This document shows positions 17,728 through 62,088 of a DNA stretch of 64,000 bases, piece after piece. The position numbers and the translations under genes are program-made. The notes below the pieces were generated by a model. It made no database searches and was not told the DNA's origin. It was given only the letters and a program-made list of their open reading frames with translations. Within the stretch, counting starts at the first letter, position 1; every line of letters starts with the position of its first letter. This DNA is from Candidatus Omnitrophota bacterium (GTDB lineage: Bacteria; Omnitrophota; Gorgyraeia; Zapsychrales; Zapsychraceae), in the NCBI GenBank assembly GCA_028280285.1, contig JANQMA010000013.1, positions 5,355 through 69,354 of the forward strand, read 5' to 3'.

Positions 17728-18849
17728 TCAGCACTCTTTAAATAAAATACCGCCTTTTTCTGTCTGTTTAACCTCAAGCAGTGCCGCATCAGCTGTTTTA
17801 ATCAATTTTTTCGGGCTAATATTTTTGCCCGGAACAAATTGTGAAACACCAAAACTAGCGGAAACTTTGATTTTTTTTCCATCATGTTCAAAACTCAAAT
17901 TTTTAATCACATCAGAAATTGATATTAAGCGGTTGACGATTTGCTCAGGCTCTCCATCTCCAAAAAGCATCATAAACTCATCACCCCCGTAACGTCCGAT
18001 ATCTGTGCCTTCACGTACAGATTGTTTAACTGTCTTGATAATTTTTTTAAGAACAGCATCTCCAAATGTGTGACCTAAAGTATCATTTAAGTCTTTAAAA
18101 TGATCAATATCAAATATGATGAAATAAAACCCTTCATCGGTAAATATTGATTTTGTAATCCTTCGCTCCAGTCTTTTAATAAAATGTTTACGATTAAACG
18201 TTTGTGTCAGCCCGTCAATTTCGGCTTCCGTTTTAGCAGCCTCATAAGATCGCTCAAGCTTCTCTTCGCTTTCACGCAGCTTTTCACGTATCACAAACTC
18301 TTTTTCATACTGATTAGCATAAAGATTGCCGATGATGGCCATAAAAATCATTGTGGAGGTGAGAAAAAATAATGCATGAAACAAATAAAATAAGTCCACA
18401 GTTGCCGGCGACAAAAGCGTTGCAATAACATACATCGCCAGAATCCCAACATAGATGACAATGTTATACCCGGTGCGGAAACTATTAGCCATGAACATTC
18501 CTATAACAACCAGATTTAAACCCTGATAATAAGGACTAACAGAACCCTCCGTTATATTGATCATCAGACAAATACCGCCGGCTGTAAAAATACCGACAAA
18601 AATACAAAGCCACACAGCATATCGCGTAAAGTTGCTAAGTAAGGTCAAACAATAAATCGCCAATAAACCTGCCGTTACCGCCAGACGAATAATAAAAAAT
18701 AGGGCCAGAGGATAATTGCCATAGATAAAAAAGTCTAGAGCAAAAAAGGAAAGATACAAAACAATCGCAACTATTAACGCCAAACGTAGCCGGATAGTCG
18801 TTATTAAATTAATTTCTGTTAAGTATTTTGTTTGGAGCTGTTTATTCAC
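17728..18849 (-). CDS. Membrane-bound diguanylate cyclase (GGDEF)
   Basis: Five to six N-terminal transmembrane helices; GGDEF active site RYGGDEF; conserved DxLT and KxxND regions. Confidence 0.85.
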   Translation of the reverse strand: MNKQLQTKYLTEINLITTIRLRLALIVAIVLYLSFFALDFFIYGNYPLALFFIIRLAVTAGLLAIYCLTLLSNFTRYAVWLCIFVGIFTAGGICLMINITEGSVSPYYQGLNLVVIGMFMANSFRTGYNIVIYVGILAMYVIATLLSPATVDLFYLFHALFFLTSTMIFMAIIGNLYANQYEKEFVIREKLRESEEKLERSYEAAKTEAEIDGLTQTFNRKHFIKRLERRITKSIFTDEGFYFIIFDIDHFKDLNDTLGHTFGDAVLKKIIKTVKQSVREGTDIGRYGGDEFMMLFGDGEPEQIVNRLISISDVIKNLSFEHDGKKIKVSASFGVSQFVPGKNISPKKLIKTADAALLEVKQTEKGGILFKEC

Positions 18850-18888
18850 TTCTGTATCCCAGATGAGGGCAAATAGACGAAATCAACT

Positions 18889-19662
18889 TCAGCCTAAGCG
18901 GAAGGCTTCATTGACACTTTTCAAAATCTCTGCCGGGTTAATATATTCAATTAGAGTTGTGACATTTGTTTTTTGGGAAACAGTTTGTAAAATTTGTTTT
19001 GCTTGCAAGGACGACTTATCAGGCGTATAAAGCACGCAGTTTATTTTAGCTGTTTTGGCCATTTGATAAAGACGCAACACCAGCAAATCTCCTGGAATAT
19101 CATCGAGGTTAAGCGCAACAAGCGCTATATCCGGCTGAAGGCCTATCATCTCCTCTATCGCCTCTATTCCGGAAGCAGAAGTACGGACGGCATAACCGTC
19201 GTTTTTAAACATCGCTTCAATATCTTCAAGCACATTCGCATCACTTTCAACAATAAAGACATCCTTCCCCACTTTGACCTTGCCTGCATCCCGGTCTTGA
19301 AAAACAGCCTTAATCTCATCTAAAATTTGTTGCGGGCTATAAGGTTTTGCAATAAAACCGGCTACATTAAGCTCCATAAACATTTTCTCCATATCAGCCC
19401 TGCCGGTTGAAACAAATATGGGATACTTCGGTTGCTCATCATCACAAATCTTTTCATAAAACTCAACGCCGCCCATGTTTGGCATATTAATATCAAGAAT
19501 AATTAGATCCGGGATTTCCGCTTCGGCCACTTCAAGACCTTTAAGCCCATCATTAGCCATACTGACATGAAAGCCGTTTTTTGTCAAAAATGCCTGAAGC
19601 GTTTGGCAAACGTCTTTTTCATCATCAATAATTAAAATTTTCTGAGCCATAAAATACCTCAC
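18889..19662 (-). CDS. Response regulator with two tandem receiver domains (second one degenerate)
   Basis: REC1 ILIIDDEKDV...DLIILDINMPNMGG...AKP; REC2 VFIVESDANV...DIALVALNLDD; no output domain. Confidence 0.75.
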   Translation of the reverse strand: MRYFMAQKILIIDDEKDVCQTLQAFLTKNGFHVSMANDGLKGLEVAEAEIPDLIILDINMPNMGGVEFYEKICDDEQPKYPIFVSTGRADMEKMFMELNVAGFIAKPYSPQQILDEIKAVFQDRDAGKVKVGKDVFIVESDANVLEDIEAMFKNDGYAVRTSASGIEAIEEMIGLQPDIALVALNLDDIPGDLLVLRLYQMAKTAKINCVLYTPDKSSLQAKQILQTVSQKTNVTTLIEYINPAEILKSVNEAFRLG

Positions 19663-19764
19663 GTGAATTAATTAGGTTAATACGTATTTAACACCACTTT
19701 TATGCCGTTTGCAAATGTTTGAAAAGATTTTTTGAGGGGTAATTGGAAAAACGATTTATGGGTG

Positions 19765-19826
19765 AGATAAAACAAATAGGCCTTCACACTATTACATTCC
19801 GCCAGGTATGAGAACGCGTGAAGGCC
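19765..19826 (-). terminator. Candidate intrinsic terminator downstream of the methyltransferase gene
   Basis: 9-bp stem AGGCCTTCAC/GTGAAGGCC (19778-19787 / 19818-19826) with a large loop. A U-rich run follows on the minus strand (plus-strand AAAACAAAT at 19769-19777). Confidence 0.4.
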
Positions 19827-19901
19827 CGACCTCTGTCCTCTTCTTCGCTCTCTATCTTAGCGGTAATTTTTACTTACACAATGCCCAGAATACACCCAAA
19901 A

Positions 19902-20669
19902 CTATCTTTTTTCTACTTTTTGCGCCACTATCATCCAATCCCATGGATACGGATTTCCAAGCCATTTCGGAGGATTATCGGCCTCCTCTTCCCAGCTGTA
20001 CTCAATTTTTTTAATATCTATAACTTTATAGCCATTTTCTGACAAAAATACCGCCAATTCCTCACGCGTAAAACACTTCGTTGGTGTTCCGCCAATATTG
20101 ACTATAGCGTCAACAGCTGAAAAAACATCCTTTTGAAATAAACGATCCATTACCTTAACGCCCTTTGTACGACTGGCGCCATAGCGCATATCAACCCTTA
20201 TCATCGCCTGATAAACATAAATAATAGACTCATACGCAGGAACAATAAAAATGCTTTTGCCTGACGGTTTAGTCGCGCGCCTGACTGAACGCAACATAGC
20301 CAGACGCTTTTTATAAGCAGGGTTGATTAAAGCATTAACACAGAAACTGATATCGGCCTTAAACGGAAATCCTTTTTTAGTATGAAAATCATGACAAAGA
20401 TATTCTATATTGGAAAATGGATTGGTCGTCTGAGCTAATTTAAGAAGATCTTCAGCAAAATCGACGGCATAAACTTTTTTAAACCTTGGGGCAAGATGTT
20501 TCAGCAGGCTACCCGGTCCGCACCCTAAATCGGCAACCTTTAAGCGTGGATTAGCCAGAGCATTTAATTCTTTTTTAAAAACTTCTTTAAGATCTCGCTC
20601 GACTATTTGTAAAACATTGTCTGTGTATTTGCGGGAAAAAGAATTCCAATAATTATTATCCATGCGCAA
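19902..20669 (-). CDS. Class I SAM-dependent methyltransferase
   Basis: Motif I VADLGCGPGSL and motif post-I YAVDF; 255 aa. Confidence 0.75.
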   Translation of the reverse strand: MRMDNNYWNSFSRKYTDNVLQIVERDLKEVFKKELNALANPRLKVADLGCGPGSLLKHLAPRFKKVYAVDFAEDLLKLAQTTNPFSNIEYLCHDFHTKKGFPFKADISFCVNALINPAYKKRLAMLRSVRRATKPSGKSIFIVPAYESIIYVYQAMIRVDMRYGASRTKGVKVMDRLFQKDVFSAVDAIVNIGGTPTKCFTREELAVFLSENGYKVIDIKKIEYSWEEEADNPPKWLGNPYPWDWMIVAQKVEKR

Positions 20670-20674
20670 TCATA

Positions 20675-21127
20675 TTAGTCATCGATGCTGATATCATTGG
20701 GAAAGGCCTTACCTTTACCTGTCTCACAATATTCCTTGAGGCTGAGCATAAAAACAGCCCACTTTGTATTGCAGTGCGCAAAAAAATCAGATTCTTCCGC
20801 CCATCCTGATTGTGCAAACAAAACTTCAGTTTTACCGTCGGCTTCTTCCAAATCAAAGGTCGTAATAGTACCTTTCCATTCCTCTGGGCCTTCCACACAT
20901 TTCCATTTGATAAACTCAGGCGTTACCTCCAAAACTTCCATACCCGGACCACTTTCAGGAAACTTAAAGGTTAATGTTTCCCCCTCCAAGCTTTCCCCCA
21001 CAACGTTTTCTGTCCACCACCCTTTAAGACCGTCGGTAGTCGCAACGGCATCAAAAACTTTCTCCATTGGTGTATTGATTTTTATTTTATGTACTATGTC
21101 TGACATCTTTTGCCCTTTCTTTTTCAA
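20675..21127 (-). CDS. SRPBCC (Bet v1/AHSA1-like) domain protein
   Basis: 150 aa; the pattern (KVFDAVATTDGLKGWW...) matches the AHSA1/START-like superfamily. This is a fold-level call only. Confidence 0.55.
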   Translation of the reverse strand: MKKKGQKMSDIVHKIKINTPMEKVFDAVATTDGLKGWWTENVVGESLEGETLTFKFPESGPGMEVLEVTPEFIKWKCVEGPEEWKGTITTFDLEEADGKTEVLFAQSGWAEESDFFAHCNTKWAVFMLSLKEYCETGKGKAFPNDISIDD

Positions 21128-21140
21128 ATATGTTAAAGCT

Positions 21141-22817
21141 CTAAACTTTTGTTTGTTTTGGAAGTTTGATTGTAAATGTTGTACCTTCTCCTTCCACTGA
21201 TTCTACACTCAATTCACCTCCATGTTTTTGAATGATTTCATAACTGATACTTAATCCCAATCCTGTTCCCTCCCCAACAGGTTTTGTGGTAAAAAAAGGA
21301 TCGAAAATCTTATCTAATTTATCTTTGGGAATACCGATGCCGTTATCACTTAAACGAATACTCACATCATGCTCATCCTCTAAAGTTTCGATAATAATAT
21401 TTCCTTTTTCTTTCATGGCTTGATAGGCATTGATCAACAAATTTAAAATAACCTGTCCTAACTTTTGGACATTGCATTTAACGGGACTTGTGGTGTTATA
21501 TTTTTTAATAAGTTCGGCCTTGCCTGTCACCTCACTGGTCACAAGACTAAGCACTCCTTCAATAACCTCTTTAACCACTACATATTCCATTTCTCCTTTA
21601 TCTTCCCGGGCAAATCCGCGTAAATCGAGCACAATCTTTTTAACACGCTCAAGCCCAACCTTGGTCTCATCAATCAATACATTCATATCTTTTGTGATTG
21701 TATCAAAATTCGTCTCCTTTATATATGTTTTAATTTCTTTTAACCGGGTCTTGGCTTCAGAAATTTGATCAGCCTCAATCAGTTGTATTAATTCCATTGT
21801 CTTTTGTTGGACTTCATTAAAAATTTGACAATACTCCTCTAAAATCTGAATATTGTTAAAAACAAATCCGACTGGATTATTGATCTCATGCGCAACCCCG
21901 GCGGCCAATTGTCCGATGGATGCCATTTTCTCCGATTGAATCAATTTTGATTGCGCTATCTGTAACTGCCGGTTTTTTTTAAGCAAATCGTGATGGGCCT
22001 GTTCAATCTGAATGATCTTCGATCTTAATGTATAAACCATTTTACTAATAGACTCTGCCAACGTTCCCATTTCATCAGGCCTATCACGAAGCGATTTATC
22101 CACTTCTATTTTAAGATCTCCGTCGGCTATTTTATGCGCCAAAACCGATAGCATAACAACCGGTTGAGTAATCTTCCCGGACATAATCACAGCAAAAATA
22201 ATGCAGCCGAAAATAATACAAAAAATAAGCGGTACTCCAATAAACAAAGCCAACCTATTATTGCTATCGATTGTCTTTTGAAGCATTGTGGCATGATTAA
22301 GCTCAGAGACAATTAAAGCCTCAACACTTTCTTCTACAGAGCGCTTAATCTGATTGGCCTCTTCATAGTATTGAGAAAGTGCAATCGAACTGCCTTGTTG
22401 CACATCCTCAATTCCTTTATCACACTTAGCAATCAGATCATCGACAGTTTTTTTCGTTTTCTGATAGGCCATTTTACTTTTATAATCAACAATCGTCCCT
22501 TCCAGTTTTCTAAGAAGCTCCTTAAGCTCCTTTGTCTTTTGCCGGTATTCATTGCGGAAATTCACATTATGAATATTTTTAGCCGAAAAATAATAGGCCA
22601 AAATAGTATCCGAAACACTATTTAAAATCCTATGCTGCATATCTAAATTGCGGGTAATTTGTCGATAAGTCTGAAATATTTTGAAATGATATAACGCGGT
22701 AACGGCAATACCCGCCGTCATGGCCATGACAATAATCAAAAAGGCGATCACTAAGGTCTTGCGGATATGCGCTGATCTTAAATAACTTTTGGGTTTTTTG
22801 ACTTGGTTTTCAAGCAC
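21141..22817 (-). CDS. Sensor histidine kinase (TM-sensor-TM-HAMP-HisKA-HATPase_c)
   Basis: Two transmembrane helices flank a periplasmic region of about 150 aa. H-box [13 protein letters not shown]; G-boxes DNGIGI and GTGLGLS. Confidence 0.85.
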
Positions 22818-22933: not shown

Positions 22934-25900
22934 TTATAGCATAAGAGCTTGTTCAAGTGACTCTTCATGTCTGACATGCATACGATTCTTTTGGCCGTCA
23001 TTGAGGCCCAAGAGTTGCGGCAGGTTATTGATAGGCGTGATTTGAAGGACTTGTGGAATCAAGCCGGGGATTTCAATACTTTGCAGCTGGGCCGGATCAA
23101 TAGCAAAATCCAAATCAACACCAACCCCTTGGCTCTCTAATTCAAGGAAATCAGGGTTAAAGTCAATACCACCTTGTTTAAGATCTGAAATAGTAGCCTC
23201 ATCATTATGGGCCTTCGTCGGTGAACGGACAGCTATTTCAGGATATGGACTATCTTGTAGGTCCTTTTCAGTAACTTGTGGTAATCTTATTTCTATTTCG
23301 GTTCCAGTATTTTTATCTGATTGAATACTTAATTTTCCGCCATTTTTACTCACATCAAGATCAAGCGCTGCTAATCCCATGCCCGTTGCCTGCCCAAAAG
23401 AAACACGATACCAATTGCCATCCTCATCTTGAAAATCAGTTTCTTTATTATAAGAATAATGCAACACATTCTCAATGTCATCTGTGTCCATTCCGATTCC
23501 ATTATCTTTAATCTTAACAACTACTTCACTTGTTTTTTCATCAAAGGAGGCAGATAAACGCACCTTTCCTCTAACATGACTCCCTCCGTGTTTTTTGACA
23601 CGATCAGGATAAACGGCATTGAAACTGACATATTCTCCAGTTTCTTCAAAACCATCATTAATTTTTTTTAGCTTTTGTGCAGCAACAGCAAATTTACCAT
23701 TTCTTGTCGCCTGGATCAACGACGCTCTAAATCGTTTAGGGTGTGTTAAAATTGTTAACTTTTCCTCATCTTGAATATTAACTTCAATTTCCTCTACAGC
23801 ATCTGAACCGAGAAGTGACTCCATAGAATCAAAATCTCTGTTTGTGTGTACTATCTTATTTTTTGTGGATCTTAAAATATCTGCCAAGTTCACATGAGAA
23901 AGAATGAGACCATGACGTGTCCTTTCATCAATTGTCAGGGCTCTCATACGATCATATCGCTCCCCGATAAATCCACTCAGCCAATCAATTTTAGCCAAAA
24001 TATCTGAAACCTTTTTAAGGGTTCTCGGGTCGTCACTTAAATCAAACGAATCGCGCACACTATCCGTACTAGCCGCCTCAAAAGATTTTTTAAATGAAGG
24101 AAACCCTTCACTATTCGTAACATCTTCAGGTAACCCTTCTATCATTTTAGGCGTGATAACAGCTTTGATAAACCGCCTTAGTGCTTTCGCAGCAACCTCC
24201 TCATCACCTTTTCCAAAATGTTTTTTTCCATTTCGCAGATGCCTGTTAAATCGCCCACGATTAATATTATTGATAACCCAGTCTAAATTAGCCATTTTAC
24301 TTAGAGCAAAATCCGTTCCGACAATATCATCAAACTCCCCCCACAAAATACGCATTTGTCTGAAAATTTCCAGCATATCCTGCTGTAAGTAGATCGCGAG
24401 TGTCGCTTTTTCTAAAATACCCCCTTTGTGTGTAATTTCATAATCGTGCAAATAATCTGCATATGTTGCCGGATAGTATCTGCGCTTGATTAATTCCTCA
24501 TAAGCTGGCAAAGGCTGTTTGGACATATATTGAATCATAGCCCCGCCTGCAGTCTGCACCATTTGAAAAAATCGATCTAAACCATTCTTGCGCGCACTAC
24601 CGACTGTGCCGCCGCCAATAATAGCGATTTTTTTGCCTTTTTGACTATCCATAAACAAAAGAACCTTATCAATAAGAAGCGTATCGAACCTTCCCGTTGC
24701 AATTTCTTCATTAATCCGGTCTCTTGGGAAAGGTGGCACGACCTCTCCATTTTTCGCTATGAACTCTTCAAATAACACACGATTAAAAAAATCGATTCCC
24801 GCTTGAGGCACATTTACATACATAGCCGGCAAAAAGCTGTCTCCCTTCAGACCTATATACTCCTTTTTTTGATCTCGCTTATTAACCCCCGAAGGCCCAT
24901 TAAGAAGTCCGAAATTCAGATCCTTAATATTTTCTATATGCTCCCAAATAGCCTCAGGAGAAACCATATGGAATTTCCAATTATTTTCGACTTGTTCGCT
25001 AGGTCTGGCAATTCTAAAACTTGTTTCTACTAAATCATTCGGCGCAATCTTCTTGTCTTTAAATACCAGTGATTTCGGAAAATTTAACTTACTCCTGACA
25101 TCAGGATTTTTAATAAAAGCATCAATCGCGTGTTGTAAAAATTTGTCGCGATCACCTTCGTTTTTTACCCTAAAATCGATATTGCGCACAAATGGCGCTG
25201 AGCCTTCAACAGCATCCAATGCTTTATATAAAATAATCGCCGGCTGCCCGCCTAGAGGAAGATATTTCATGGTTGGTAAAGAACGCAAGTTTTGATACAT
25301 TAGAAACAATTTTTCTTTAATGCTCTTGTCACTTTTGCCATTTAACCAAGCGAACTCCAAAACATTCATATGCTCCTCAGCTTCCTTCATTTCCTTGGCC
25401 ATGACATAACCCATAACAGCGGGGGTGTCCTCATCTAAGCCCATTGAAGCATCGCGCCGATGGGCCGTTCCCATAGCATCTATAACATGTAAAACAGAAT
25501 GTTGAAGCAGTTTACGACGAAACTCCATATGCTTATCATAGGCATCCTCTAATTTATCAAGCCCCTTATAATAAACGGTAAAAAAATGAACAAGGGCACG
25601 ATATTGCTGAGTAAGATCGTTTGAGTCAAAATATTCAATATATTTCTCAAATGTTGAAGGCGCCAAATGCCTGACATGTCGAGGGATGTTTTCATTCCAC
25701 CTGTAGATATCGTTAAAAGCTCCTAAAACAAAACTTTGCGTCGATCTGATTTGATGCTCAAAATTAGAATTACTTTGCAGAATATTTTCATATATGTTAG
25801 TGAAAATTTTTATTCTATCCAGATTAAGCATATCTGATGGTAATGCTGCCCGGGCTTCTAATATATTTTTTTCAAACTCCTCTAGAGATTTTTCTAAGAT

Positions 25901-28900
25901 TTGCTCTTCCTCAATAAAACGTATATCTTCTCCCATAACAAGCTCGCCATTTTGCATTTCATTATGCATGAAATCTGCTATTTGATATGGTGCATGAACG
26001 CCTTCGAAAAAATGAACCTTTACTTCTTTACCCATCAACTCACTTAGCACCTTTTGCGCAAAAGGAGCAATAGGCCTATTTGTGTATTTTTCAAAATATT
26101 TCTTTTTAATCTCATCATATACGCGTCGCTTCTCCTCGAATCCTTCAGATTCGAACTCTTTAATCAATCTTTCATTTCTTTCTATTTCACCCAATACGTA
26201 TTCATAATGAGCACTCTCAATTCCCTTTTCCTTCATTTCTTTTGATATCTTTGTACGGTGGTTTTCAGCTTTTTGAGGATTTATATTTTCATTTTCCAAC
26301 GCCGTCTTTCTTTTATTTAATACCTTCCGCCTCTTTTGCAACATCGGCAAATAATCACGCATCTCTTTATTAATTTCATCTAAAGGCCTCCCATTATGAG
26401 AAATAACAAAAGCTTTGGCTCCGGCTTCCAGTGCCTGTTTAATTGTGGGTAAGGCAGCCATAAAACGCGCATCAGCATCAATTTTCCCGTTTTTCGCAAC
26501 ACCATTCAAATCGAGACGAATAGTAATAATCTTTCCTTCGATCACAATATTAGGAACATTTTTAAGCTCTAACGCCCTTAAGAGCTCATACAATGTCTTT
26601 TGCTCAAAAATATCTGAAATAGGCGTGGCACGCACATCTTCGCCAATATAGGCATCGATATAGATCTTTTCAATTTGCGCCTGAAGTTTTTTTACTTTAA
26701 GCAACCTTTTACTTGATTTTTCTAAGGACGACCAAGCACCATCTATTGCATCATTGTATCTTTTTCGAGCCTTTTTAAGTTGCCTCAGCAGCCCTCTTAC
26801 CTTACTTGTACCATTTAAAGCGACAAGCTGCTCTTCGCTTAAGGCTTCATTCAATTTATTGCGTTGCTGCAACTGTTCTTGCGTTAATTCATAAATATCA
26901 GATTCATAAACATTAGCCCGTTTTAATCGGTCTCTTAAAATGTCAATCGCCAAATTTCTCTCCGTCTCTTGAACATGCTCATCCGCCGTTAATTCTACAT
27001 ACTTTTTATTTTTCGCCTTGTCTGTATATTTTTGAAAGTAGACGCCATCCGCTGGACTAACAACCCGATACCCTTTTCTTTTAATCGTATCGGTAGCACC
27101 ATTAAAAATTCGGTAATCAATATGAAAAGGATAGCGCCCATGCTTGTGGCCGACGTGCTTGCCCGCCACCCCTTCTTCAGCCAAAATAGCATCAATTTCA
27201 TATGGCACGATCCAGGGCATATCGTTTGGATTAAAGGCACTTTTCCCATGCAAAGGTTTTCCCAATAATTTATTGCGCATATGCCATAAAGCTAAATTGT
27301 GACGCTCTTTAAGAGAAAATTGTTTTTTATAAAATTTAACTTCTATATCTTCAAGAGAATACCCCTCTTCGTCTTCCCTTAATTGAACAAGAGGTAAGGC
27401 CATTTTGTACCACTCATTAAATTTACTCACAAAACTATCAGGAATTTCATTCAGTGAATTATATTTTCCAAGCTCTTCGGCCAACTCTCTTTGAATTCTT
27501 AAAACATTCTCAATGGCTATCCGGTCATCCGGCTCATTAACATGTTTAGCCAAATCGCCATACACACTCTCCGTTGAAAACTCATGCGTATCTAAGATAA
27601 ACCGGGCAATTTCCAAAAGATTGATTTTGTTTCTATATTCTTCTTCATTCTCCGTTTTTTCAGGTTGTTTAAATTCCTTATTAAAGACAGCCGACATAAA
27701 ATCAAGTTCCTTGTTGCCGTGATTATAGTGTACTTTGAGCAAATCACGTGTTTCTTCATCATTAGCCATGACATGCAACTTTTGTAATGTGCGAAAGCTT
27801 CGAAAAATGGTTTCCGCCCTTTTTTCTTCAAACCTTGCTCTTTCTACCGGATCCTCAGTTATTTTATCTAAAGGGTAGTTATCCGGAATGGTAATATTAT
27901 CCCCATCCATAATAACTTCTGTTGGCAGACTCCCTTCTTGCTTTGCCATTTTTTGATCTTCTTCCAATATGTTACGCCGCACATGATTTAATACACCACG
28001 GGTAGGACGATACAAACTATGCCCATCTGAAAAAATAAACACCTCGCGAGCTTCGCCAGGACTAACTTGACTTATAACGCGATTAAAATCCTCTTCCATT
28101 TGTGGATGTTTAAAGCGAGGTTTATGCAATGATTGCCCGTTGGCATTACGCAATGTGACATATTTACGCGCCATTTTTTCACGATGGGCTGGAAGCGGCG
28201 GCATAACAACAGCATCATCACTCCGTTCATCTTTTTTCATCTGATAGCGCCCGGAAACCCGCATAAACTGATTGCTCAGTATATTGCGCGACAATTGGAC
28301 CGGCTCAAGGACGGCCGAATCATACGTACTGTGAGAAAGGCCGATGCCACCGGAGAAATATTTACGTGGCATGATTTGTTGGGAAGCAGGGTCGTACTCT
28401 TCTTTGATATAATCGTAAACGCCTTTGCGATAGGCTTGCAGATACTTTTGGTAAACCTCTTCTTTGGAATTTGGCGCGCCGCTTTCTAAGCCTTGGACCT
28501 TATTTTGGTCAGCGTATTTAGCGGTTAAAATTGAACTTTTAAGCTTGTCTTTATACCAAACCGCTAAGATAAACGAATGATAGATTTGACGTAATGCAGC
28601 GAAATGTTTGCCGCGATTAACCTCCTCTTCGATGATAGGCAAAATAACATCTTTCATCACATCTGTTGAAATCTGTGCAATTTTGGATGCGTCTAACTTG
28701 GAAGGATCATGACGCGTAGAATAATCTTCATGGGCATGAAAATAGGCAAAATAATCTTCTTCGGTCATTACCTTTAAATGGCTATAGGTAATAAAAGCCT
28801 TATTCCTATCTTCATAAATCTTGGCTGTCTCCGGTACGATCCAAATTTTGTTGTACGTATTTAATGGAATATCTGCCAAGCCGTGTTGTTGTTCAGCTCT

Positions 28901-29392
28901 TTGCCGGACTTTGTTCCAAAATTTTTGCCCTAATTCGCTTTCGGGGTAAGTTAAAGACGCACTTAATTGCTTTAAGAGATAATCTTGAAGCAACATATTA
29001 CGTCCAAACTCGGTTACTTCAAGCGTCTCGGTTATAATCCTGTCGTCCTCATATGGCGACAGGTTAACCCAGAGCTCTTCTTCGGGGACAGTTAAAGCGG
29101 CTAGAAAATATTTAATTAACTGTTCGGATTCTTTTGAAACATCAAGCTGCTTAAGATTTTCATCCCCAAGATTAAGAATAAAATCAAAAGCAAAGGGTTC
29201 GTTTGGATTTATAATAATTCCATTTAAGACAGGCGGATTATACGGTTGGCTGACTGAAACAAAAACCCCGGGGGCAGGAACAAATACCTCTTGAGCCGCA
29301 GCATAAGAAGCGAATATGGTTTCAAATAAAAATACCCCGGCTATAAATAAAGATAAAACTTGTTTAGAAATCCGTAAGCCCGGCATACCCAT
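22934..29392 (-). CDS. Giant secreted multidomain protein (about 2150 aa): shared N-terminal module, insertion-split phosphoglycerate-kinase-like fold, C-terminal GHKL ATPase domain, shared C-terminal tail
   Basis: Start reassigned to the internal [34 protein letters not shown] (signal peptide). The ORF-track start at 29443 would overlap the upstream giant gene by 80 nt. PGK-like motifs: [80 protein letters not shown]. GHKL motifs: KDNGIGMD and GQATGMGLA. Confidence 0.7.
   Translation of the reverse strand: [2152 protein letters not shown]
23279..23626 (-). other. GHKL/HATPase_c-like ATP-binding domain at the C-terminus of the giant ORF
   Basis: D-x-G-x-G ([10 protein letters not shown]) and G-x-G-x-G-L ([11 protein letters not shown]) boxes, ending in a [10 protein letters not shown] strand. 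Confidence 0.6.
24494..26566 (-). other. Phosphoglycerate-kinase-like fold embedded in the giant ORF (residues about 960-1650), interrupted by coiled-coil insertions of about 90-150 aa
   Basis: The order and spacing of the PGK signature blocks are preserved: R-x-D-x-N / ALPTI / SHxGRP; then SxAP...L.GKEV...RF..EE; then DAxGTAHR; then the IIGGG and TGGG loops. Confidence 0.6.
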
Positions 29393-32300
29393 CGGATATC
29401 TCACTTTCTCTAGTAGCAAGGTTAATTTTATGATTGGCTTCATACTCCTCGGATCTGTATCCTAATAATTCATAAATAGCCTCCTCATCATAAACTTCAT
29501 CTTTTGTTGTGCGGATCGGCGTCTGTTTAAAATCTTGTGTATTAAGCCCCAGCAGTTGCGGAAGATTAACAGGTGTAATATTTTGAATCACCGGAATAAA
29601 CCCTTTAAGATCAAGATAAATATCCGCCGGCTGCTGTGGTAAAGGCAGCGGCACCCCCTTACCATCACGCTTGATTTGCCATTCAAAGAGATCAGGGTTT
29701 AGGTTAATCCCGCCAAGATCGTCTTCTTGCTTTTGCATTGCCGCCTCATCAGCAGCTTCCTGCCCATATTCTTCTGCTGCCTGTGCGGCCATTTGTTCCA
29801 AACGCGCTTCTCTACGTAACGCTGCCAACTGTGCATTAAGCGGAATGTAAATGGTTTGCTCTTCTGTGCTTTGTTGAAAGGTAATATTCGGATCTTGCGA
29901 ATTAGTATCAACAATGTTCAACAAACTTTCAACATCGCCAAATACTTGATTGATAATATCTATACCGTCTTTTTCCAAGAGTGCTTCTCTCCGCTTAAAA
30001 TCATCGGTTAAATCAAGCCACCACGAGGCAACCCATGGCTCATAATACGGCCTGGATTTGATTTTAATTTGTTCCTTGGAATAAGCGTCCAATATGATTG
30101 TCTTGCGATCATCCGTGTTCGTTTTCATAACCTGGAGCATGCTTGACACAAACTCTCTGAACTCTTCAAGAGTAAGTTTTTCATAAAGATCTTTCCAGGT
30201 AACCTTAAAACTTTTCAAGGCCTGATAAATATCCCGTTCAACCCACACATTTTTATTGTCAGAAAGATTTTCTGCTTTAGCCGCTTCAATTAACGCCGCA
30301 AAACCGTGCTCATAATCAAAATTAGGCAAATCCGAATCCGCCTGCTCCTGAAGCATGGTTGCCCCCATCCTTCGGTCTAATGGATCAGCAGACTTAAGCA
30401 GCTCCCTTGGATCGCCTTCAGCTTCGATTCCTAGACGTAAGAAAATATCATCAACAGTAGCCTGATAATTTTCAAAATCCGGAATCGGCTGCCCTGGCTT
30501 TGAAAAATCATACGGAGCAAAGGCAGCAGCAAACTCGACTTCAGGAACATACGTAATCCCGTTGACCTCTATATGCTCGGAATAACCACTTGTTCTCGTT
30601 AAAAGCAACCGCAAGTCACGCTTAATTTCATTATCGAGAAATAGGTCAATTCTGACAGGAGGATTGCTAAAGTCCATATACCTCGGCCCAAGAATCGCGG
30701 CCTGTTTTACAATCTTAGGCGCCTGGTTGATAAACGGTTTAATAAACGCGTGTAAAATACGCGGATCGTTCGGCTCAACATAACTTTTTGACTCCCTGTC
30801 TCTTTCTTCTGGGTTCAACATATAAATTAATGCCTCAAACGCACTAACAGCAACCAGATCATTAGGCGACTCTGTTCTTTTAAATAAATAATCTAATAAT
30901 TCATTAGCATCAACATCCCTTTTAACAAGCAGCTCGATTTTCTCTCTAAAAATTTCGGGGTTAGTTTCAGAGTCTAAGCTATTAAGCAAATTTGTATCGA
31001 TAATATTTACTCCATCCGGCAAAACATCGAATCTATAATCTTTACGTTGTTTAATAAGCTCAACCCCCAGCATGCGCAGTTGATAATTAGGATGGTTTAT
31101 CATCTGTGCAATATCATCAATTGATCTTACATGAAGAAGAATTAACTCATTTAAGTCTCTAATCCTATCGATCCTTTGCCTATGCGGCCGGTCGCGGTTA
31201 ACATTGGCGCCTTCTTTTCCGACATTGCCATCCTGGCGGATTGTATCTCTCCTGCGCACTCCGCCCCCTCTTTCAAAATGCGTCATCCCTAAAGTTGCTT
31301 TATAACGTATATCCTGATTGCCCTCTTCTTCGTATTCCACTGCTTGGCCAACATTTGGAAAAAAGATATCATTCCATATCCTGAGTTTTTGATATAAAGC
31401 AGCCTTCCTGTTAACTACCGCCTCTCCTGATATACGCGCATCTGAATCATTTTCTAAATCATCGATTTCCCTTACAATCTTTTGAGCATAACCCAGAATC
31501 AAATCGAACATTTTGGTGCGTACTTCGACATTTTCATGTTCCGTTCCCTTATGCACAGCTTCTAGCATATCTCGTTCTTCTTGTGTATTATCAGCCAGCC
31601 ATGCCTTTTCCATAAGAATGGCAGCCGGTATATCCGCACGAGGATCAGTATCATCTGCTGTTCTACGACTGAGCACCTCTTTAGCCGGATTACCTTCCAT
31701 GGCCCCCAAAAGACCAAAAACCTCCTCACGAACAAATGATGGGAAATCTTTATGCGTTGCGCCAACTAAATCATCCGATAAAACACCACTTTTAAATGCA
31801 TCATTGACCATACGATCAAAACTAACCTCTTTATCATCTGCATTTAAAAAATTTCGCGCTATTGTTTCTTTTCGATCTTCATCTCGCACAATTGTATTCC
31901 ATAGATCGGCCGATATACGTAACTCTCTTTCAATATTAAGCAACTCCTCGCCCGCCAAAGGAGTCGGATATAAATTAATCAGTGATTCTGGATTAAGCAC
32001 AGCTAATTGTTTACGTAACTCTCTTCTAACATCTACATTAGCATTATTAAGTGCTTGTTCTCCTAGACGCTCATATCGCTCCAATAAATCTATGATGTAG
32101 GAATAAATATCCTGGCGTTGATCTTTAGCTGTTTTGGCCATCTGACTCAGCGCTCTGATATAACGGATTTGTTGGGGGGTTGCTTCAGGCCCTTTAGTTT
32201 GGGATGCCTTTATGACTCCTCTTTCTATAGCCTCAACATCTATTTTATTCGCAATCCAGTTGATTAAATCAATCGTCCGCCCCTCTACTGAAACATCCTT

Positions 32301-35300
32301 AAGCGTCCCTTCAAACTCAACAGGAGCTAAATTATACTGAAACGCATCATATATGGCGTCTCTGGCCGGCTTATCGAATGCATCTTGTCCCATTTTTTTA
32401 AATTCGCGGTCAATGAGATCTTTAAGACTGTTTGTTTCGCGTGTGGGTGGCTCCTGATTAAGCTTGCGTCTTACCTGGCCAAGCGCCTGAATAGCCTGCA
32501 TCTGTGCTGTTCCATATCTTGCAATACGGATATAAGTCAAAACTGTTTCGCGCTGTTTGCCATACTCAATATCTTTGGCACCGCTGCCGAAAAATACATC
32601 CGCCAAAACATTAAGCGCATCAACATCCCCCATAGCTCCTAACTGGCTAAAATGATGCGCAACATTGGAAAGCTCCCCGGAGGCGATGTCAGCAAAAGTA
32701 ATGCCTTTTGGTTGATACCCGTATCTCTTCAGCCCTCCACGAGCAATATCACGTGTAACAGGATCGTTATTTTGCGTATAGGAAAGAAGCATGACAATCC
32801 GTCTTTGCTTTTGCCGTTCTGTCATATCTGCGTGAGGCGGTTCAGCCATCATCGATGCCATAAACTGATTAAAACTGCGTGCATCAAGACTTCTGATCCT
32901 CTTGCGTGCCTCAAGCAATTTTCTTTTGTTAACCCCTAACTCGGAAAAAACGATATCGTAAAACAGTTTAAACCCAACCGATCTTGGATCAATAAATTCG
33001 GTTGAAATATAACTTGCCAGTAAATGTTCCGCCCCCGCATTAAAAAGCGCCGAATAATAGGTCTGATCCTCCATGCGGTCTAACGCCAGACCAAAAGAAT
33101 TAAGATACAGTAAGCTCTCTTTATCTTGTAGCCCCTTAGCTCTAGCTTGCGCCAATTGATAAATAGCATTTTCAATTATGCTTGTTGTGCCACGCAAGAC
33201 CCGCATAGAAAGAGTTGGGTTATATTCACGGTGTTTTTTCACCAGTGCTTTTTGTGATAAACGCCAATCATTTTCCGTATGAAGCCGGTAGGCCTGTGCG
33301 GCCCTTTCTCTAACCAGTGGATCGGAGTCCCACATCGCATCAATCAAAGCCTGTTTGGCTACCGCCCCACGTACATACGCCAGACGCGTCACCGCCTCGA
33401 TTCTATACTGAACCTTTTCATGTAGCGTTGCAATGCGGGCTAACAATTCCCGCGCCGGTTTACGTACCGGCCTTGCCAATAAACGTGCAGTGCTTACGGC
33501 AAGCCCATAATTTAAATTATCGAGTTCTAACTCATATTCACCTTCAACCCGCACCCAGGGATTGCTCGGAAGGCCTGGCGCAGCAATCGGTCTGGTTATG
33601 TCAATCGTAAAATCTCTCCCTGAAAAGATGAATGATTCGCGGTCTAGATCTGCCCCGCGCAAATTGAGTTCAAAACGCAGACGCTCATGAGCTCTGTCCG
33701 ATAAGGTAGCAACCGTTGCATATCTAGATAATGTTTTTCTATCTCGGTCATAAATCCAATAGGAATCATTCGACATAAACAAAAGCGCGTCGAATGCAGC
33801 CTCAACCTCAATATCATTGTCTGCTCTATTATTGAGCAAAAACCGTTCAATGCCCTCAAAATTAGCCGCTCTTTTACCCTTTATAAATAAAAACGACTCA
33901 CTACGAAGCCCTGAAATCCTTAAGGCCTGAGCAACGGCAAAAGGACTATTACTTTTCTCAATGGTTTCGATCAGAAGCCTGCTGGTATTTTTAGTACGCG
34001 AGCGTTCTAACCATTTACTCACAATCCTTTTTATTGTCTCATTTGTCCCCCCAAGCAAATCAATCAGTCCGCGGACAATGCTTTCGTCTAAATCATTTTT
34101 TGGAAAGAGCTCTGTATATCTTTCAAGCCAGGCATCAGCATACTCCGCAGATTGCGGCCGGTCGCGCATGGCATTGACCATAACAATCGCCGCTTGCCTG
34201 CCTTTTTCTCTGGCCGCATCAGGATTCGCTTTATATGCTTCTTGAAATAATCTATCTAATTCAATTAACTCTTTCAGCGTTTTAGAATCATTTTTTGTCC
34301 GTAAATACTCCTCGATATTATCTTGTGCAATCAAGCTGTCGACATCTGTTATTTCTTCTCTCTGCTGGTAAATTTCCAAATCCCTTGGAGCCGCTTCAAG
34401 AGCCGAACCTCCCGCTACAGCCGTCGCGACAGCAAGCTTGGCGGCCACCGCACCACTTTTTGCGCTTTTTAACAAGCCTGTTATTGCTGCAGCATCAGAA
34501 GCACCGATGAGCTCATTAGCTCTGCTTTCAAGCTCCTTCTTATTATATTTATAGTCTCCTTTATCTTCTCCCTGCTCAGGAAGCTTAATAAAAACGTCTT
34601 CTGTCAGTTTTTGGAACATATAAATAATCAAGTTCTCATAAATATAATAAAAGTCATCCCCGGCCAGCTCCGATAAAAAGACTCGTGTTTTCCCTTTATC
34701 TAAACGGAAATTCGCAAGCCCCATTTTTTCAAACGGTATTTTGGACGCCACTTCCTGCATATGTCGGACTTTTTTTAAATCACTTTCCTCAACATCCTCA
34801 AAATCTTCTTTTTTGAGACTATCCGGAGATTCAATGTCAAAAACTTCAAGCAATAGACGCCCGGCCTCTTCGGTGCCCACATTAACCAGGGCCCTGGCCG
34901 CCATAAGCGTATAAATCATTTTTTCGAAATCAAAAAATGCAATTGTTCCGTTTGGCAAAAGATACTTGCGATAAATCGGCACAAGCCAATTTAAATTGCT
35001 TATCTGTGGGCTTTTGGACTGACGAAAGGATTCATGATAATTTTTGTACTTGCCCGGCGTTTGCGTAAAATAATCGGCAAAATATTGATAAACGGTCTCG
35101 ACTCTACTTGTCTTATTGTCAATTTTCCTGTCAACCACACTCCAAAGCTCTTCGCTTCTTTTATCGATTAATTCATCAAATTTTTCCCGTATGAGTTTAT
35201 CATTATCTTGATCTTTTTTCTTAAACAATCCCCTGATGCTGCGTAATATCCTCTCGACTTCCGCATCTCTCTGTTCACTTAAAACAGGCTCTCTTAGCTC

Positions 35301-61458: not shown

Positions 61459-62088
61459 ATGCAAAAGATTTCACTCAATCTACTTCTCTTTACTATCGGC
61501 ATTTGCTTCTTTGCCCATGCCCAAAATCTTTCATCTGAGTATTCTCCTTTAAATCCAGACGGCTCTGTGAACGCCCTCATTGAAATACCGGCGGGCACCA
61601 ATGAAAAATGGGAGCTGTCCAAAGACACACAAACAATCGCGCTAGAACATAAAAACGGCAAACCACGCATTATTCAATACCTTGGCTACCCCGGTAATTA
61701 CGGCATGGTACCTCAAACTTTGCTTGCTGAAGATCAAGGCGGTGATGGTGATCCGCTCGACATTCTTGTGATCGGCGCACCCGCCAAACGCGGAGATATT
61801 ATTCCGGCCAAACTGCTTGGCGTTTTAAAACTTCTCGATGATAATGAACAAGATGACAAATTGATTGCCGCCATGCCTGATTCAGTTTTCGCCAATCTTA
61901 ATTCCCTCGAGGAATTAGATCGTGGTTTCCCCGGCACTCTATCAATTCTTCAAACATGGTTTACTTATTATAAGGGGCCGAACGGCGGCATGGTCTTTAA
62001 AGGTTTCGGCACGCGCGAGGAAGCCTTAGCGATTCTTAACAAAGCTTCTGTTCCACAAACTCTTTCTGCTACTCAACAAACCAATTGA
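61459..62088 (+). CDS. ppa: Family I inorganic pyrophosphatase with N-terminal signal peptide
   Basis: PPase signature DGDPLDILV within EDQGGDGDPLDILVIG, plus N-terminal MQKISLNLLLFTIGICFFAHAQ. It is the only plus-strand gene; its 3' end overlaps gspG convergently by 20 nt. Confidence 0.8.
   Translation: MQKISLNLLLFTIGICFFAHAQNLSSEYSPLNPDGSVNALIEIPAGTNEKWELSKDTQTIALEHKNGKPRIIQYLGYPGNYGMVPQTLLAEDQGGDGDPLDILVIGAPAKRGDIIPAKLLGVLKLLDDNEQDDKLIAAMPDSVFANLNSLEELDRGFPGTLSILQTWFTYYKGPNGGMVFKGFGTREEALAILNKASVPQTLSATQQTN

What the first reader, a model, noticed from the sequence alone, without database searches (positions are those of the whole stretch)
24494..26566. A complete phosphoglycerate-kinase-like fold, split by large insertions, is embedded inside a secreted giant protein
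Residues about 960-1650 of the 22934-29392 ORF reproduce the diagnostic PGK blocks in the canonical order. The N-domain reads [52 protein letters not shown] (compare E. coli PGK [52 protein letters not shown]). Next comes PIAPFAQKVLSELMGKEVKVHFFEG...GELVMGEDIRFIEEE (PGK: LLPVVNYLKDKL...GELVVLENVRFNKGE), then VIDAMGTAHRRDAS (PGK: VMDAFGTAHRAQAS). The C-domain nucleotide loops follow: KKIAIIGGGTVG (PGK: AFSIAGGGDT) and MVQTAGGAMIQY...PLPA (PGK: YISTGGGAFLEF...VLPA). The blocks are separated by insertions of about 90-150 residues, several of them coiled-coil-like (KE-rich). There is no stand-alone pgk gene here; the fold is internal to a signal-peptide-bearing giant ORF and is followed by a GHKL ATPase domain. 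A PGK-derived phosphotransfer module in an exported giant protein is not something I know to be described.
Basis: partly seen in the sequence, partly recalled or inferred. Interest (0 to 1): 0.85.

Follow-up and report, generated by a model that had tools for sequence, protein, structure and literature searches.

The report
Remodelled PGK fold in exported Omnitrophota protein
A 2,152-residue exported protein of an uncultured Omnitrophota bacterium contains a complete copy of the glycolytic enzyme phosphoglycerate kinase, split by four helical insertions, that has lost the residues needed to use ATP and is always followed by a separate ATP-binding kinase-type domain, so it is probably a repurposed relative and not a working glycolytic enzyme.

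Summary

Four insertions of 91, 121, 13 and 58 residues follow PGK positions 66, 129, 256 and 347. All four sit next to ligand-binding loops, and relatives carry insertions at the same sites.

The N-lobe 3-phosphoglycerate site is kept. K215, K219, E343, D374 and most of the adenine pocket are replaced in every lineage, and new conserved basic residues appear. Canonical ATP:3-PG phosphotransfer is therefore unlikely.

Among 1.84 billion representative proteins there are only three other lineages. In every member whose sequence extends that far, the PGK-like domain is followed by a helical bundle and an ATP-competent GHKL domain without a phospho-acceptor histidine. All members carry an Omnitrophota-wide signal-peptide leader, and complete ones end in a GGIDxxP...NLPQLLGL tail. 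Three of the four genes lie near an exported pyrophosphatase/CotH/porin/Ig-domain cluster.

PGK domains in Omnitrophota giant proteins have already been reported, and GenBank auto-annotates one member as PGK. This is a new variant of a known kind, of moderate interest.

The parts
22937..29392 (-). Whole gene, 2152 aa (stop codon at 22934-22936). It overlaps the 3' end of the upstream 3561-aa paralogue by 29 nt.
   Evidence: (P0003, 100% identical)
29294..29392 (-). Signal-peptide-like N-terminus (residues 1-33): basic n-region, 22-residue hydrophobic core, SYAAA/QE motif. It is the only hydrophobic segment in the protein.
   Evidence: In the top database hits for the leader domain, 108 of 119 have the same kind of segment, ending in YAQ. 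No SignalP was available, so cleavage is inferred.
28343..29293 (-). Omnitrophota-wide leader domain (residues 34-350). It matches no Pfam family.
   Evidence: 43% identity to the upstream 3561-aa giant. At least 1425 database hits at 450-510 bits, almost all labelled Candidatus Omnitrophica/Omnitrophota.
27023..28030 (-). Module with degenerate metallophosphoesterase-like motifs (residues 455-790: SDGHS, DGDN, GNKE, GHKH). Its identity is unproven.
   Evidence: Motifs shared with P0007 and in part with P0005. No Pfam or PDB sequence hit.
24467..26560 (-). PGK-like domain, residues 945-1642: a complete two-lobed fold with four insertions.
26108..26380 (-). Insertion 1 (residues 1005-1095, 91 aa), after PGK position 66, directly after the SHNGRP motif that holds H62 and R65. 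Helical and rich in K/E.
25538..25900 (-). Insertion 2 (residues 1165-1285, 121 aa), after PGK position 129, just after the EDIRF motif that holds R122. Predicted as a helical bundle.
25154..25192 (-). Insertion 3 (residues 1401-1413, 13 aa), after PGK position 256 in the adenine-pocket strand. It is 13-59 aa long in relatives.
24692..24868 (-). Insertion 4 (residues 1509-1567, 58 aa), after PGK position 346/347, just after LNGPSGVNKRD (the altered WNGPxGVFE motif). Most of it falls in the only long low-confidence stretch of the model, model residues 574-617 (protein residues 1513-1556).
23753..24466 (-). Conserved helical linker (residues 1643-1880). No histidine is invariant across the family.
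23258..23752 (-). GHKL ATPase/kinase domain (residues 1881-2045). Motifs: N box TRNGKF 1896-1901, G1 DNGIGM 1963-1968, G2 FGQATGMGL 1999-2007, G3 TGTEIE 2029-2034.
23000..23173 (-). C-terminal tail GGIDFNP...ITPINNLPQLLGLN (residues 2074-2131). It is shared with the upstream giant and with all complete family members.

Best explanation
This is a divergent paralogue of glycolytic phosphoglycerate kinase. It has been recruited as a cargo module into an exported Omnitrophota 'leader-cargo-tail' protein.

It keeps the hinge-linked two-lobe clamp, the N-lobe site for a phospho-carboxylate ligand of the 3-PG type, and the glycine-rich loops that bind phosphates. The C-lobe MgADP/ATP site and the catalytic lysines have been rebuilt into a different, more basic site. 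Four helical insertions have been grafted onto the loops that line the cleft.

In every family member that extends that far, it is followed by a helical bundle and an ATP-competent GHKL domain with no phospho-acceptor histidine.

My inference is that the GHKL domain now supplies the ATP site. The PGK-derived clamp would bind an anionic (phosphorylated or carboxylated) ligand, either as the substrate-holding half of a composite kinase or as a sensor whose hinge closure gates the GHKL domain.

The module most likely acts outside the cytoplasm, together with the neighbouring exported pyrophosphatase, CotH-type kinase and surface proteins.

Shown: the fold, the insertions, the residue changes, the domain coupling, the rarity and the synteny. 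Inferred: ligand type, coupling mechanism and location.
- Site audit. D23, N25, R38, H62, R122, H169, R170, N336, G337, P338, G371-373, T375, G395 and G396 are kept in all lineages. K215, K219, F342, E343, D374 and S392 are changed in all lineages, although each is invariant or nearly so in 22 ordinary PGKs.
- New family-conserved basic residues appear at positions 214, 217, 343 and 344.
- Of 65 near-invariant PGK positions, this protein keeps 25 of 31 in the N-lobe and 20 of 32 in the C-lobe.
- The roles of K215, K219, E343, D374 and the adenine pocket come from PMC2441801.
- Insertion sites are shared by all lineages.
- Every member with that region has PGK-like, then linker, then GHKL in that order, even where the other modules are shuffled.
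- The GHKL N, G1, G2 and G3 boxes are intact, with no HisKA domain and no invariant histidine.
- Export. There is a single N-terminal hydrophobic segment and a conserved leader.
- Neighbours carry signal-like N-termini, including the pyrophosphatase in four loci.
- Synteny is seen in three lineages.
Against: - No biochemical data exist, and the ligand is unknown.
- A lysine sits one position before the lost K215 (GGK in place of GGAK) and could in principle substitute for it.
- E343 is not essential for catalysis in human PGK (PMC2441801).
- Relatives lack R65 (SHLDDP in place of SHLGRP), so the N-lobe site is not uniform across the family.
- The AF2 alignment contained 22 ordinary PGKs, which biases the model towards PGK.
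- The linker/GHKL model is only moderate (pLDDT 66). Its resemblance to PDK/BCKDK is weak evidence.
- ATP-dependent domains outside the cytoplasm have no obvious ATP supply.
- The signal peptide was judged by eye, not by a predictor.
Confidence: 0.55

Rival explanations
1. It is a working phosphoglycerate kinase tethered inside an exported protein. It would make ATP locally from 1,3-bisphosphoglycerate and ADP (or run in reverse) to feed the adjacent GHKL domain and the neighbouring CotH kinase. This would resemble the way PGK is built into the Mycoplasma mobile gliding motor.
For: - The PGK fold is complete, and in this protein the 3-PG site is fully conserved, including R65.
- The Gly-rich phosphate loops GGG and T(A/G)GG are kept.
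- A lysine lies next to the lost K215.
- PGK and TIM domains are reported on an Omnitrophota giant protein.
- P0056 carries a canonical PGK inside a 2525-aa protein.
Against: - K215, K219 and E343 are invariant in 22 of 22 ordinary PGKs, and D374 is D in 21 and E in 1. All four are replaced in every lineage of this family.
- Five of the six audited adenine-pocket residues are changed here.
- Core identity to ordinary PGKs is 24-29%, below the minimum of 34% among ordinary PGKs.
- Relatives also lose R65.
- The NCBIfam PGK/TIM equivalog scores 86.8 against a cut-off of 883.
Confidence: 0.12
2. It is a catalytically dead pseudoenzyme. The rigid two-lobed PGK body would serve only as a scaffold or spacer that displays the helical insertions, for example for protein-protein contacts, with no small-molecule ligand.
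For: - The catalytic and nucleotide residues are lost.
- Nearly 300 residues of helical insertion were gained.
- The family diverges faster than ordinary PGKs.
- Precedent: a non-catalytic PGK homologue, MMOB4490, in M. mobile (PMC11864180).
- Many Omnitrophota long proteins are mosaics of enzyme-like domains of unknown activity.
Against: - Ligand-contacting residues D23, N25, R38, H62, R122, H169, R170 and N336 and both Gly-rich loops survive in lineages that share only 26-43% core identity.
- The lost acidic and neutral residues are replaced by basic residues conserved across the family (K214, K217, R/K343, R344). This looks like selection for a new site and not decay.
Confidence: 0.25
3. 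The architecture is an artefact: an assembly chimera, or two or more genes fused by a gene-calling error.
For: The sequences come from metagenome assemblies. One relative appears split into two calls, P0007 and P0004, which are recorded from ENA contigs of identical length (12,080 nt), probably the same contig.
Against: - The ORF is uninterrupted over 6.5 kb.
- The same protein is recorded from NCBI and Logan assemblies.
- Four independently assembled lineages have the same PGK-like/GHKL order, the same insertion sites, the same leader and, where complete, the same tail.
Confidence: 0.02

Closest known systems
Glycolytic phosphoglycerate kinase (EC 2.7.2.3, Pfam PF00162), e.g. S. aureus 4dg5, T. 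maritima 1vpe, human PGK1
   Different: - About 283 residues of insertions at four cleft-lining loops.
- K215, K219, E343, D374 and the adenine pocket are replaced.
- 24-29% core identity.
- Embedded at residues 945-1642 of an exported 2152-aa protein.
- Obligately followed by a GHKL domain.
PGK and TIM domains on Omnitrophota giant proteins (bioRxiv 10.64898/2026.06.04.730025), and enzyme-domain mosaics in Omnitrophota long proteins (bioRxiv 10.1101/2023.11.21.568195; 10.64898/2026.06.07.730766)
   Same: The same phylum and the same phenomenon: cytoplasmic-type enzyme domains, including PGK and HATPase_c, inside very long proteins that bear a signal peptide or TM segments.
   Different: Those reports list Pfam hits only. 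Here the protein is much shorter (2152 aa), the PGK fold is split by conserved insertions, the active site is remodelled, and the domain forms a fixed unit with a GHKL domain in a family of only four lineages.
PGK of the Mycoplasma mobile gliding 'twin motor' (MMOB4530, PDB 9io5) and its non-catalytic paralogue MMOB4490 (PMC11864180)
   Same: A PGK-fold protein physically integrated with an ATPase machine. The same genome has a PGK homologue whose binding and catalytic residues are not conserved.
   Different: In M. mobile the PGK is a separate cytoplasmic polypeptide with conserved catalytic residues, and it binds an F1-like ATPase. Here the PGK fold is fused in cis to a GHKL domain, is exported, and lacks the catalytic residues.
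Thermotoga-type bifunctional PGK-TIM fusion (NCBIfam NF010569)
   Same: PGK forms one module of a longer polypeptide. It is the best NCBIfam hit (E 9.6e-25).
   Different: The score of 86.8 is far below the 883-bit cut-off. There is no TIM domain. The fusion partner and cellular location are different.
PDK/BCKDK-type GHKL protein kinases and histidine-kinase CA domains
   Same: The linker plus GHKL model aligns over about 400 columns with PDK2/BCKDK, which are a helical bundle plus a GHKL domain. By sequence it matches the CA domains of KinB, CheA and WalK. The N, G1, G2 and G3 boxes are present.
   Different: No HisKA/DHp histidine. No sequence-level match to the PDK N-terminal domain. The model confidence is only moderate (pLDDT 66).

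Membership tests
Phosphoglycerate kinase (PF00162 / EC 2.7.2.3) | Profile match above the curated threshold | tested here: met
   PF00162: 95 bits against a cut-off of 27, E 6.4e-27. Relatives score 88-148 bits.
Phosphoglycerate kinase (PF00162 / EC 2.7.2.3) | Complete two-lobed fold (N-lobe, hinge helix, C-lobe, C-terminal return to the N-lobe) in the canonical order | tested here: met
Phosphoglycerate kinase (PF00162 / EC 2.7.2.3) | 3-PG/1,3-BPG site: D23, N25, R38, H62, R65, R122, R170 | tested here: met
   All are present in this protein: D961, N963, R976, H999, R1002, R1158 and R1312. R65 is D in the three other lineages.
Phosphoglycerate kinase (PF00162 / EC 2.7.2.3) | Catalytic and nucleotide-phosphate residues K215, K219 and D374, and the ribose ligand E343 | tested here: not met
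   K215 to S (N in relatives), K219 to I (L), E343 to K (R), D374 to gap (G). Each is invariant or nearly so in 22 ordinary PGKs. Residue roles from PMC2441801.
Phosphoglycerate kinase (PF00162 / EC 2.7.2.3) | Hydrophobic adenine pocket (A214, G238, L256, G312, L313, V341) | tested here: not met
   In this protein these positions are K, Q, P, F, H and V. Only V341 is kept.
Phosphoglycerate kinase (PF00162 / EC 2.7.2.3) | Enzymatic interconversion of 3-PG + ATP and 1,3-BPG + ADP | not testable with these tools
   Needs purified protein and the GAPDH-coupled assay.
Two-component histidine kinase | HATPase_c/CA domain with N, G1, G2 and G3 boxes | tested here: met
   PF02518: 39.2 bits against a cut-off of 26.4. 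Motifs located. Best PDB sequence hits are KinB, CheA and WalK.
Two-component histidine kinase | DHp/HisKA domain with a conserved phospho-acceptor histidine upstream of the CA domain | tested here: not met
   No HisKA hit at E <= 10. No histidine among the invariant columns of the linker in four lineages.
Omnitrophota leader-cargo-tail exported proteins (not found described in the papers searched) | Signal-like N-terminus, a leader domain of about 320 aa containing WVNLSP and QDYLLKQ, and a C-terminal GGI[DN]xxP...NLPQLLGL tail | tested here: met
   Leader: 43% identity to the neighbouring giant and at least 1425 homologues. Tail: shared with the neighbour and with family members. Most database hits are truncated, so the tail could not be scored family-wide.
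Calcineurin-like metallophosphoesterase (for residues 455-790) | DxH / GD / GNH[DE] / H / GH motif set and a profile match | tested here: inconclusive
   Motif-like strings SDGHS, DGDN, GNKE and GHKH are conserved with P0007, but the GNH histidine is K/N. No Pfam or PDB hit.

The most novel reading that the evidence does not exclude
Omnitrophota run phosphoryl-transfer chemistry outside the cytoplasm. In this reading, an exported PGK-derived clamp fused to a GHKL ATP-binding domain works with an exported inorganic pyrophosphatase and an exported CotH-type kinase at the cell surface or at the contact with a host or prey cell. The PGK-derived module would have evolved a new phospho-donor or acceptor specificity (for example an acyl-phosphate, pyrophosphate or polyphosphate-type ligand) in place of MgATP. 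That would make it the first neofunctionalised enzyme family built on the otherwise almost monofunctional PGK fold.
Probability: 0.15. Interest if true: 0.85.

Novelty: new variant of a known kind. Interest (0 to 1): 0.5.

Why it matters
PGK is one of the most conserved and functionally uniform enzyme families. A lineage that keeps the fold and the substrate lobe, rebuilds the nucleotide lobe, and pairs obligately with a different ATP-binding domain would be a rare case of PGK neofunctionalisation.

It also bears on an open puzzle: what cytoplasmic-type enzyme domains are doing in the exported long and giant proteins of Omnitrophota. This protein is only 2152 residues, and the PGK-like/GHKL unit is about 1100 residues. 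That is small enough to express and test, unlike the proteins of 30,000 to 150,000 residues described so far.

If the module proves inert, the finding still warns against the automatic annotation 'phosphoglycerate kinase' now attached to a family member in GenBank, and against counting such hits as glycolytic capacity in MAG surveys.

Tried and rejected
- Word-indexed homologue search with the 767-aa region returned only two ordinary PGKs and no orthologue. The candidate list was probably swamped by K/E-rich words.
- The same tool with the family profile returned 28 ordinary PGKs but not the family members themselves.
- A genome-contig scan with the single protein found nothing.
- Alignment A1 was too divergent for that tool. 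A tighter alignment, A3, found two loci.
- A metagenome-contig scan with A3 found no relative.
- The afdb50 fold library was not available.
- The metallophosphoesterase idea for residues 455-790 could not be confirmed.
- A histidine-kinase reading of the C-terminal module was rejected as a membership claim because no HisKA domain or conserved histidine exists.
- An assembly-artefact explanation was rejected because four independent assemblies share the architecture.
- A literature search for the CotH/LTD/pyrophosphatase cluster in Omnitrophota found nothing relevant.
- I did not test codon usage or dN/dS. Base composition shows no anomaly.

Full report
OBSERVATION

The finding lies in a minus-strand ORF. 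The earliest ATG is at 29443. The public gene call starts at 29392 and gives 2152 residues.

All six quoted peptide blocks are in the translation. Pfam scores the protein against PF00162 (PGK) at E 6.4e-27, 95 bits, against a gathering cut-off of 27. It also reports HATPase_c at residues 1934-2039 (39.2 bits, cut-off 26.4).

phmmer against PDB sequences gives 47 PGK chains. The best is T. maritima 1vpe at 1e-19, with four collinear blocks covering PGK residues 5-82, 72-123, 138-202 and 343-391.

COMPLETENESS OF THE FOLD

I aligned residues 940-1665 with four relatives and 22 ordinary PGKs (A2). The region fills 379 of 385 PGK core columns at 24-29% identity. Ordinary PGKs share 34-97% with each other.

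An AlphaFold2 model from that alignment has mean pLDDT 80.2 and pTM 0.79. Only model residues 574-617 (protein residues 1513-1556, within insertion 4) are below 50.

- Foldseek against PDB: the top 50 hits are all PGK, with E down to 9.5e-18, about 700 aligned columns, and TM normalised to the target of 0.66-0.78.

Caveat: the alignment contained ordinary PGKs, which pulls the model towards PGK. The sequence evidence is independent of that.

INSERTIONS

In human PGK1 numbering, the insertions follow positions 66, about 129, 256 and 346/347. In this protein they are:

| Insertion | Residues | Length |
|---|---|---|
| 1 | 1005-1095 | 91 aa |
| 2 | 1165-1285 | 121 aa |
| 3 | 1401-1413 | 13 aa |
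| 4 | 1509-1567 | 58 aa |

Relatives have insertions at the same four sites, with different lengths: 35-91, 81-131, 13-59 and 8-58 residues (ranges across all four lineages).

The model predicts insertions 1 and 2 as bundles of five helices each, with pLDDT mostly 82-95. Insertion 1 is 45-50% charged residues.

Each insertion starts within a few residues of a ligand-contacting residue: R65, R122, L256 and E343. By position in the sequence, they therefore decorate the cleft rather than the periphery. This last point is an inference; I could not inspect coordinates.

ACTIVE-SITE AUDIT

I used human PGK1 as the ruler. Its numbering was verified on 26 of 27 checked positions; the single mismatch (position 213, G, not the A I had entered) was an error in my expected value, not in the numbering.

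- Kept in all lineages: D23, N25, R38, H62, R122, H169, R170, G213, G237, N336, G337, P338, G371-373, T375, G395 and G396.
- R65 is kept only in this protein. Relatives read SHLDDP or SHLEDP.
- Changed in every lineage: K215 to S/N, K219 to I/L, F342 to N, E343 to K/R, D374 to gap/G, S392 and E400. In the 22 ordinary PGKs, K215, K219 and E343 are invariant, and D374 is D in 21 and E in 1.
- In this protein the adenine-pocket residues A214, G238, L256, G312 and L313 are K, Q, P, F and H.
- New basic residues are conserved across the family at positions 214, 217, 343 and 344.
- Of 65 positions that are near-invariant in ordinary PGKs, this protein keeps 25 of 31 in the N-lobe and 20 of 32 in the C-lobe.

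According to PMC2441801:
- The adenine inserts into the cleft formed by A214, G238, L256, F291, G312, L313 and V341.
- E343 hydrogen-bonds the ribose.
- K219, and possibly K215, position the alpha-phosphate.
- D374 is a nucleotide-phosphate site.
- K215 is an essential catalytic residue.

Canonical MgATP:3-PG phosphotransfer is therefore unlikely. The replacement of acidic and neutral residues by conserved basic ones argues for a rebuilt site and against simple decay.

FAMILY AND DISTRIBUTION

An exhaustive HMMER search of 1.84 billion representative proteins with residues 940-2050 found the protein itself (P0003) and only four relatives above the level of ordinary PGKs:

| Protein | Length | Bits |
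|---|---|---|
| P0004 | 666 aa | 226 |
| P0005 | 2019 aa | 170 |
| P0006 | 2184 aa | 109 |
| P0007 | 1433 aa | 109 |

P0007 and P0004 are recorded from ENA contigs of identical length (12,080 nt), probably the same contig. P0007 ends where P0004 begins in the alignment. They are probably one gene split by a frameshift.

P0180 (2033 aa, locus L004) clusters with P0005 at 90% identity. That leaves four lineages in all.

All of them hit Pfam PGK (42-148 bits), and all that extend far enough hit HATPase_c. GenBank names P0005 'MAG: phosphoglycerate kinase [Candidatus Omnitrophota bacterium]' (MFP4473684.1). Two TPA MAGs carrying relatives are labelled 'uncultured Planctomycetales bacterium'.

ARCHITECTURE

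Every member has these modules:
- a signal-like N-terminus;
- a leader domain of about 320 residues;
- the PGK-like domain, directly followed by a conserved helical linker and a GHKL domain (wherever the sequence extends that far);
- a C-terminal tail GGI[DN]xxP...ITPxxNLPQLLGL in complete members.

Other modules move around. A region with degenerate metallophosphoesterase-like motifs lies before the PGK-like domain here and in P0007, but after the GHKL domain in P0005. Its identity is unproven.

The leader and tail are also found in the adjacent 3561-aa protein, with 43% identity over 336 residues. The leader has at least 1425 database homologues at up to 510 bits. Almost all are hypothetical proteins of Candidatus Omnitrophica/Omnitrophota, with no Pfam family. 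Of the top hits with enough upstream sequence, 108 of 119 start with a hydrophobic segment ending in YAQ.

The GHKL domain has intact N (TRNGKF), G1 (DNGIGM), G2 (FGQATGMGL) and G3 (TGTEIE) boxes. By sequence it is closest to the CA domains of KinB, CheA and WalK. There is no HisKA hit and no invariant histidine in the linker.

A moderate-confidence model (pLDDT 66) aligns over about 400 columns with PDK2 and BCKDK, which are a helical bundle plus a GHKL domain, and over about 260 columns with histidine kinases. I treat this as a lead only.

GENOMIC CONTEXT

In P0005, P0180 and P0006 the gene is followed by the same set of genes:
- a convergent inorganic pyrophosphatase;
- an unknown protein of about 300 aa;
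- an LTD-CotH protein of about 1250 aa;
- a Porin_5 protein;
- in L002, where the locus extends further, an LTD protein and a He_PIG/cadherin protein.

The same cluster is in this window at 40271-62088. Here the PGK-like gene sits at the other end of the cluster, after the 3561-aa paralogue. It is followed by a HAMP-HisKA-HATPase kinase, an AHSA1-family protein, a methyltransferase, a response regulator and a GGDEF protein.

All cluster proteins begin with signal-like segments. That includes the pyrophosphatase, both here and in the three other loci.

TOPOLOGY

The protein has one hydrophobic segment, at residues 5-34 or so. It has a basic n-region and an AxA-like motif (SYAAA/QE), and nothing else scores above 1.0 on a 19-residue Kyte-Doolittle window. 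I infer Sec-dependent export.

This agrees with reports that 94% of long Omnitrophota proteins carry a signal peptide or TM helices (bioRxiv 10.64898/2026.06.07.730766). No predictor was available, so cleavage and the final location are inferred.

MECHANISM

Best-supported reading (confidence 0.55): a PGK paralogue repurposed as an anion-binding hinge clamp with a rebuilt, more basic C-lobe site. It is permanently coupled to a His-less GHKL domain that now provides the ATP site. Together they would act either as a composite kinase or as a ligand-gated ATPase/kinase, working outside the cytoplasm with the exported phosphate-handling and surface proteins of the cluster.

Rivals:
- A genuine ATP-generating PGK tethered next to ATP users (0.12). 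The lost catalytic residues argue against it.
- An inert scaffold (0.25). The retention of ligand residues and the gain of conserved basic ones across lineages of 26-43% identity argue against it.
- An assembly artefact (0.02).

COMPARISON WITH WHAT IS KNOWN

PGK/TIM domains on a 71,949-aa Omnitrophota protein are reported in bioRxiv 10.64898/2026.06.04.730025. HATPase_c, PPDK_N and other enzyme domains are reported as common on such proteins. Canonical PGK (K00927) was found in 176 of 176 complete Omnitrophota genomes, so this domain is most likely an extra copy.

The M. mobile twin motor incorporates PGK into an ATPase machine, and that genome has a PGK homologue without conserved catalytic residues (PMC11864180).

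None of the papers I read describes an insertion-split, site-remodelled PGK fold coupled to a GHKL domain.

VERDICT

It is not a canonical phosphotransfer module. It is a new variant within the known phenomenon of enzyme-domain mosaics in exported Omnitrophota proteins. It is rare (four lineages), compact enough to test, and of moderate interest (0.5).

Noticed in passing
window 61459-62088 (+); also L002 6366-7004 (-), L003 16597-17265 (-), L004 8670-9308 (-): A family I inorganic pyrophosphatase (PF00719) with an N-terminal extension that looks like a signal peptide (MQKISLNLLLFTIGICFFAHAQN...). It is conserved next to the CotH/porin cluster in all four loci. An exported soluble pyrophosphatase is unusual.
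   Followed up: partly
window 40271-61416 (-): A conserved cluster of exported proteins: an unknown 305-aa protein, LTD-CotH (1185 aa), Porin_5, LTD-dockerin, and three cohesin/He_PIG/cadherin proteins of 1275-1581 aa. It is syntenic with the loci of the PGK-like relatives.
   Followed up: partly
window 29364-40049 (-): A 3561-aa paralogue with the same signal-like start, the same leader domain (43% identity) and the same GGINLNP...NLPQLLGL tail, but different cargo. It has only a weak HEAT_2 hit and several internal hydrophobic segments. Its stop overlaps the start of the PGK-like gene by 29 nt.
   Followed up: partly
window 28343-29293 (-) and 23000-23173 (-): The leader domain (WVNLSP, QDYLLKQ motifs) has at least 1425 homologues, almost all in Omnitrophota, and matches no Pfam or NCBIfam model. 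The C-terminal tail also matches no known sorting-signal model. Together they look like an undescribed phylum-wide carrier for variable cargo.
   Followed up: partly
window 27023-28030 (-), residues 455-790: A module with motifs resembling a metallophosphoesterase (SDGHS, DGDN, GNKE, GHKH), in which the GNH histidine is replaced by K/N. It is conserved in P0007 and partly in P0005. No profile or PDB hit.
   Followed up: partly
P0056 (2525 aa): Another large protein that combines PPDK_N, PEP-utilizers and PEP-utilizers_C with a full-length canonical PGK domain (295 bits). It shows that PGK also occurs intact inside long fusion proteins.
   Followed up: no
P0007 and P0004 (ENA contigs of identical length, 12,080 nt): These two calls abut in the family alignment and probably form one gene of about 2100 aa interrupted by a frameshift. 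That would be either a sequencing error or a pseudogene.
   Followed up: no
L004, L005 versus L002: A taxonomic label conflict. Two TPA MAGs carrying family members are titled 'uncultured Planctomycetales bacterium', while GenBank labels P0005 as Candidatus Omnitrophota and the leader domain is overwhelmingly from Omnitrophota.
   Followed up: no
window 17728-22817 (-): Downstream of the gene lie a HAMP-HisKA-HATPase sensor kinase, an AHSA1-family protein, a SAM methyltransferase, a response regulator and a GGDEF cyclase. This signalling set is not conserved next to the relatives.
   Followed up: no
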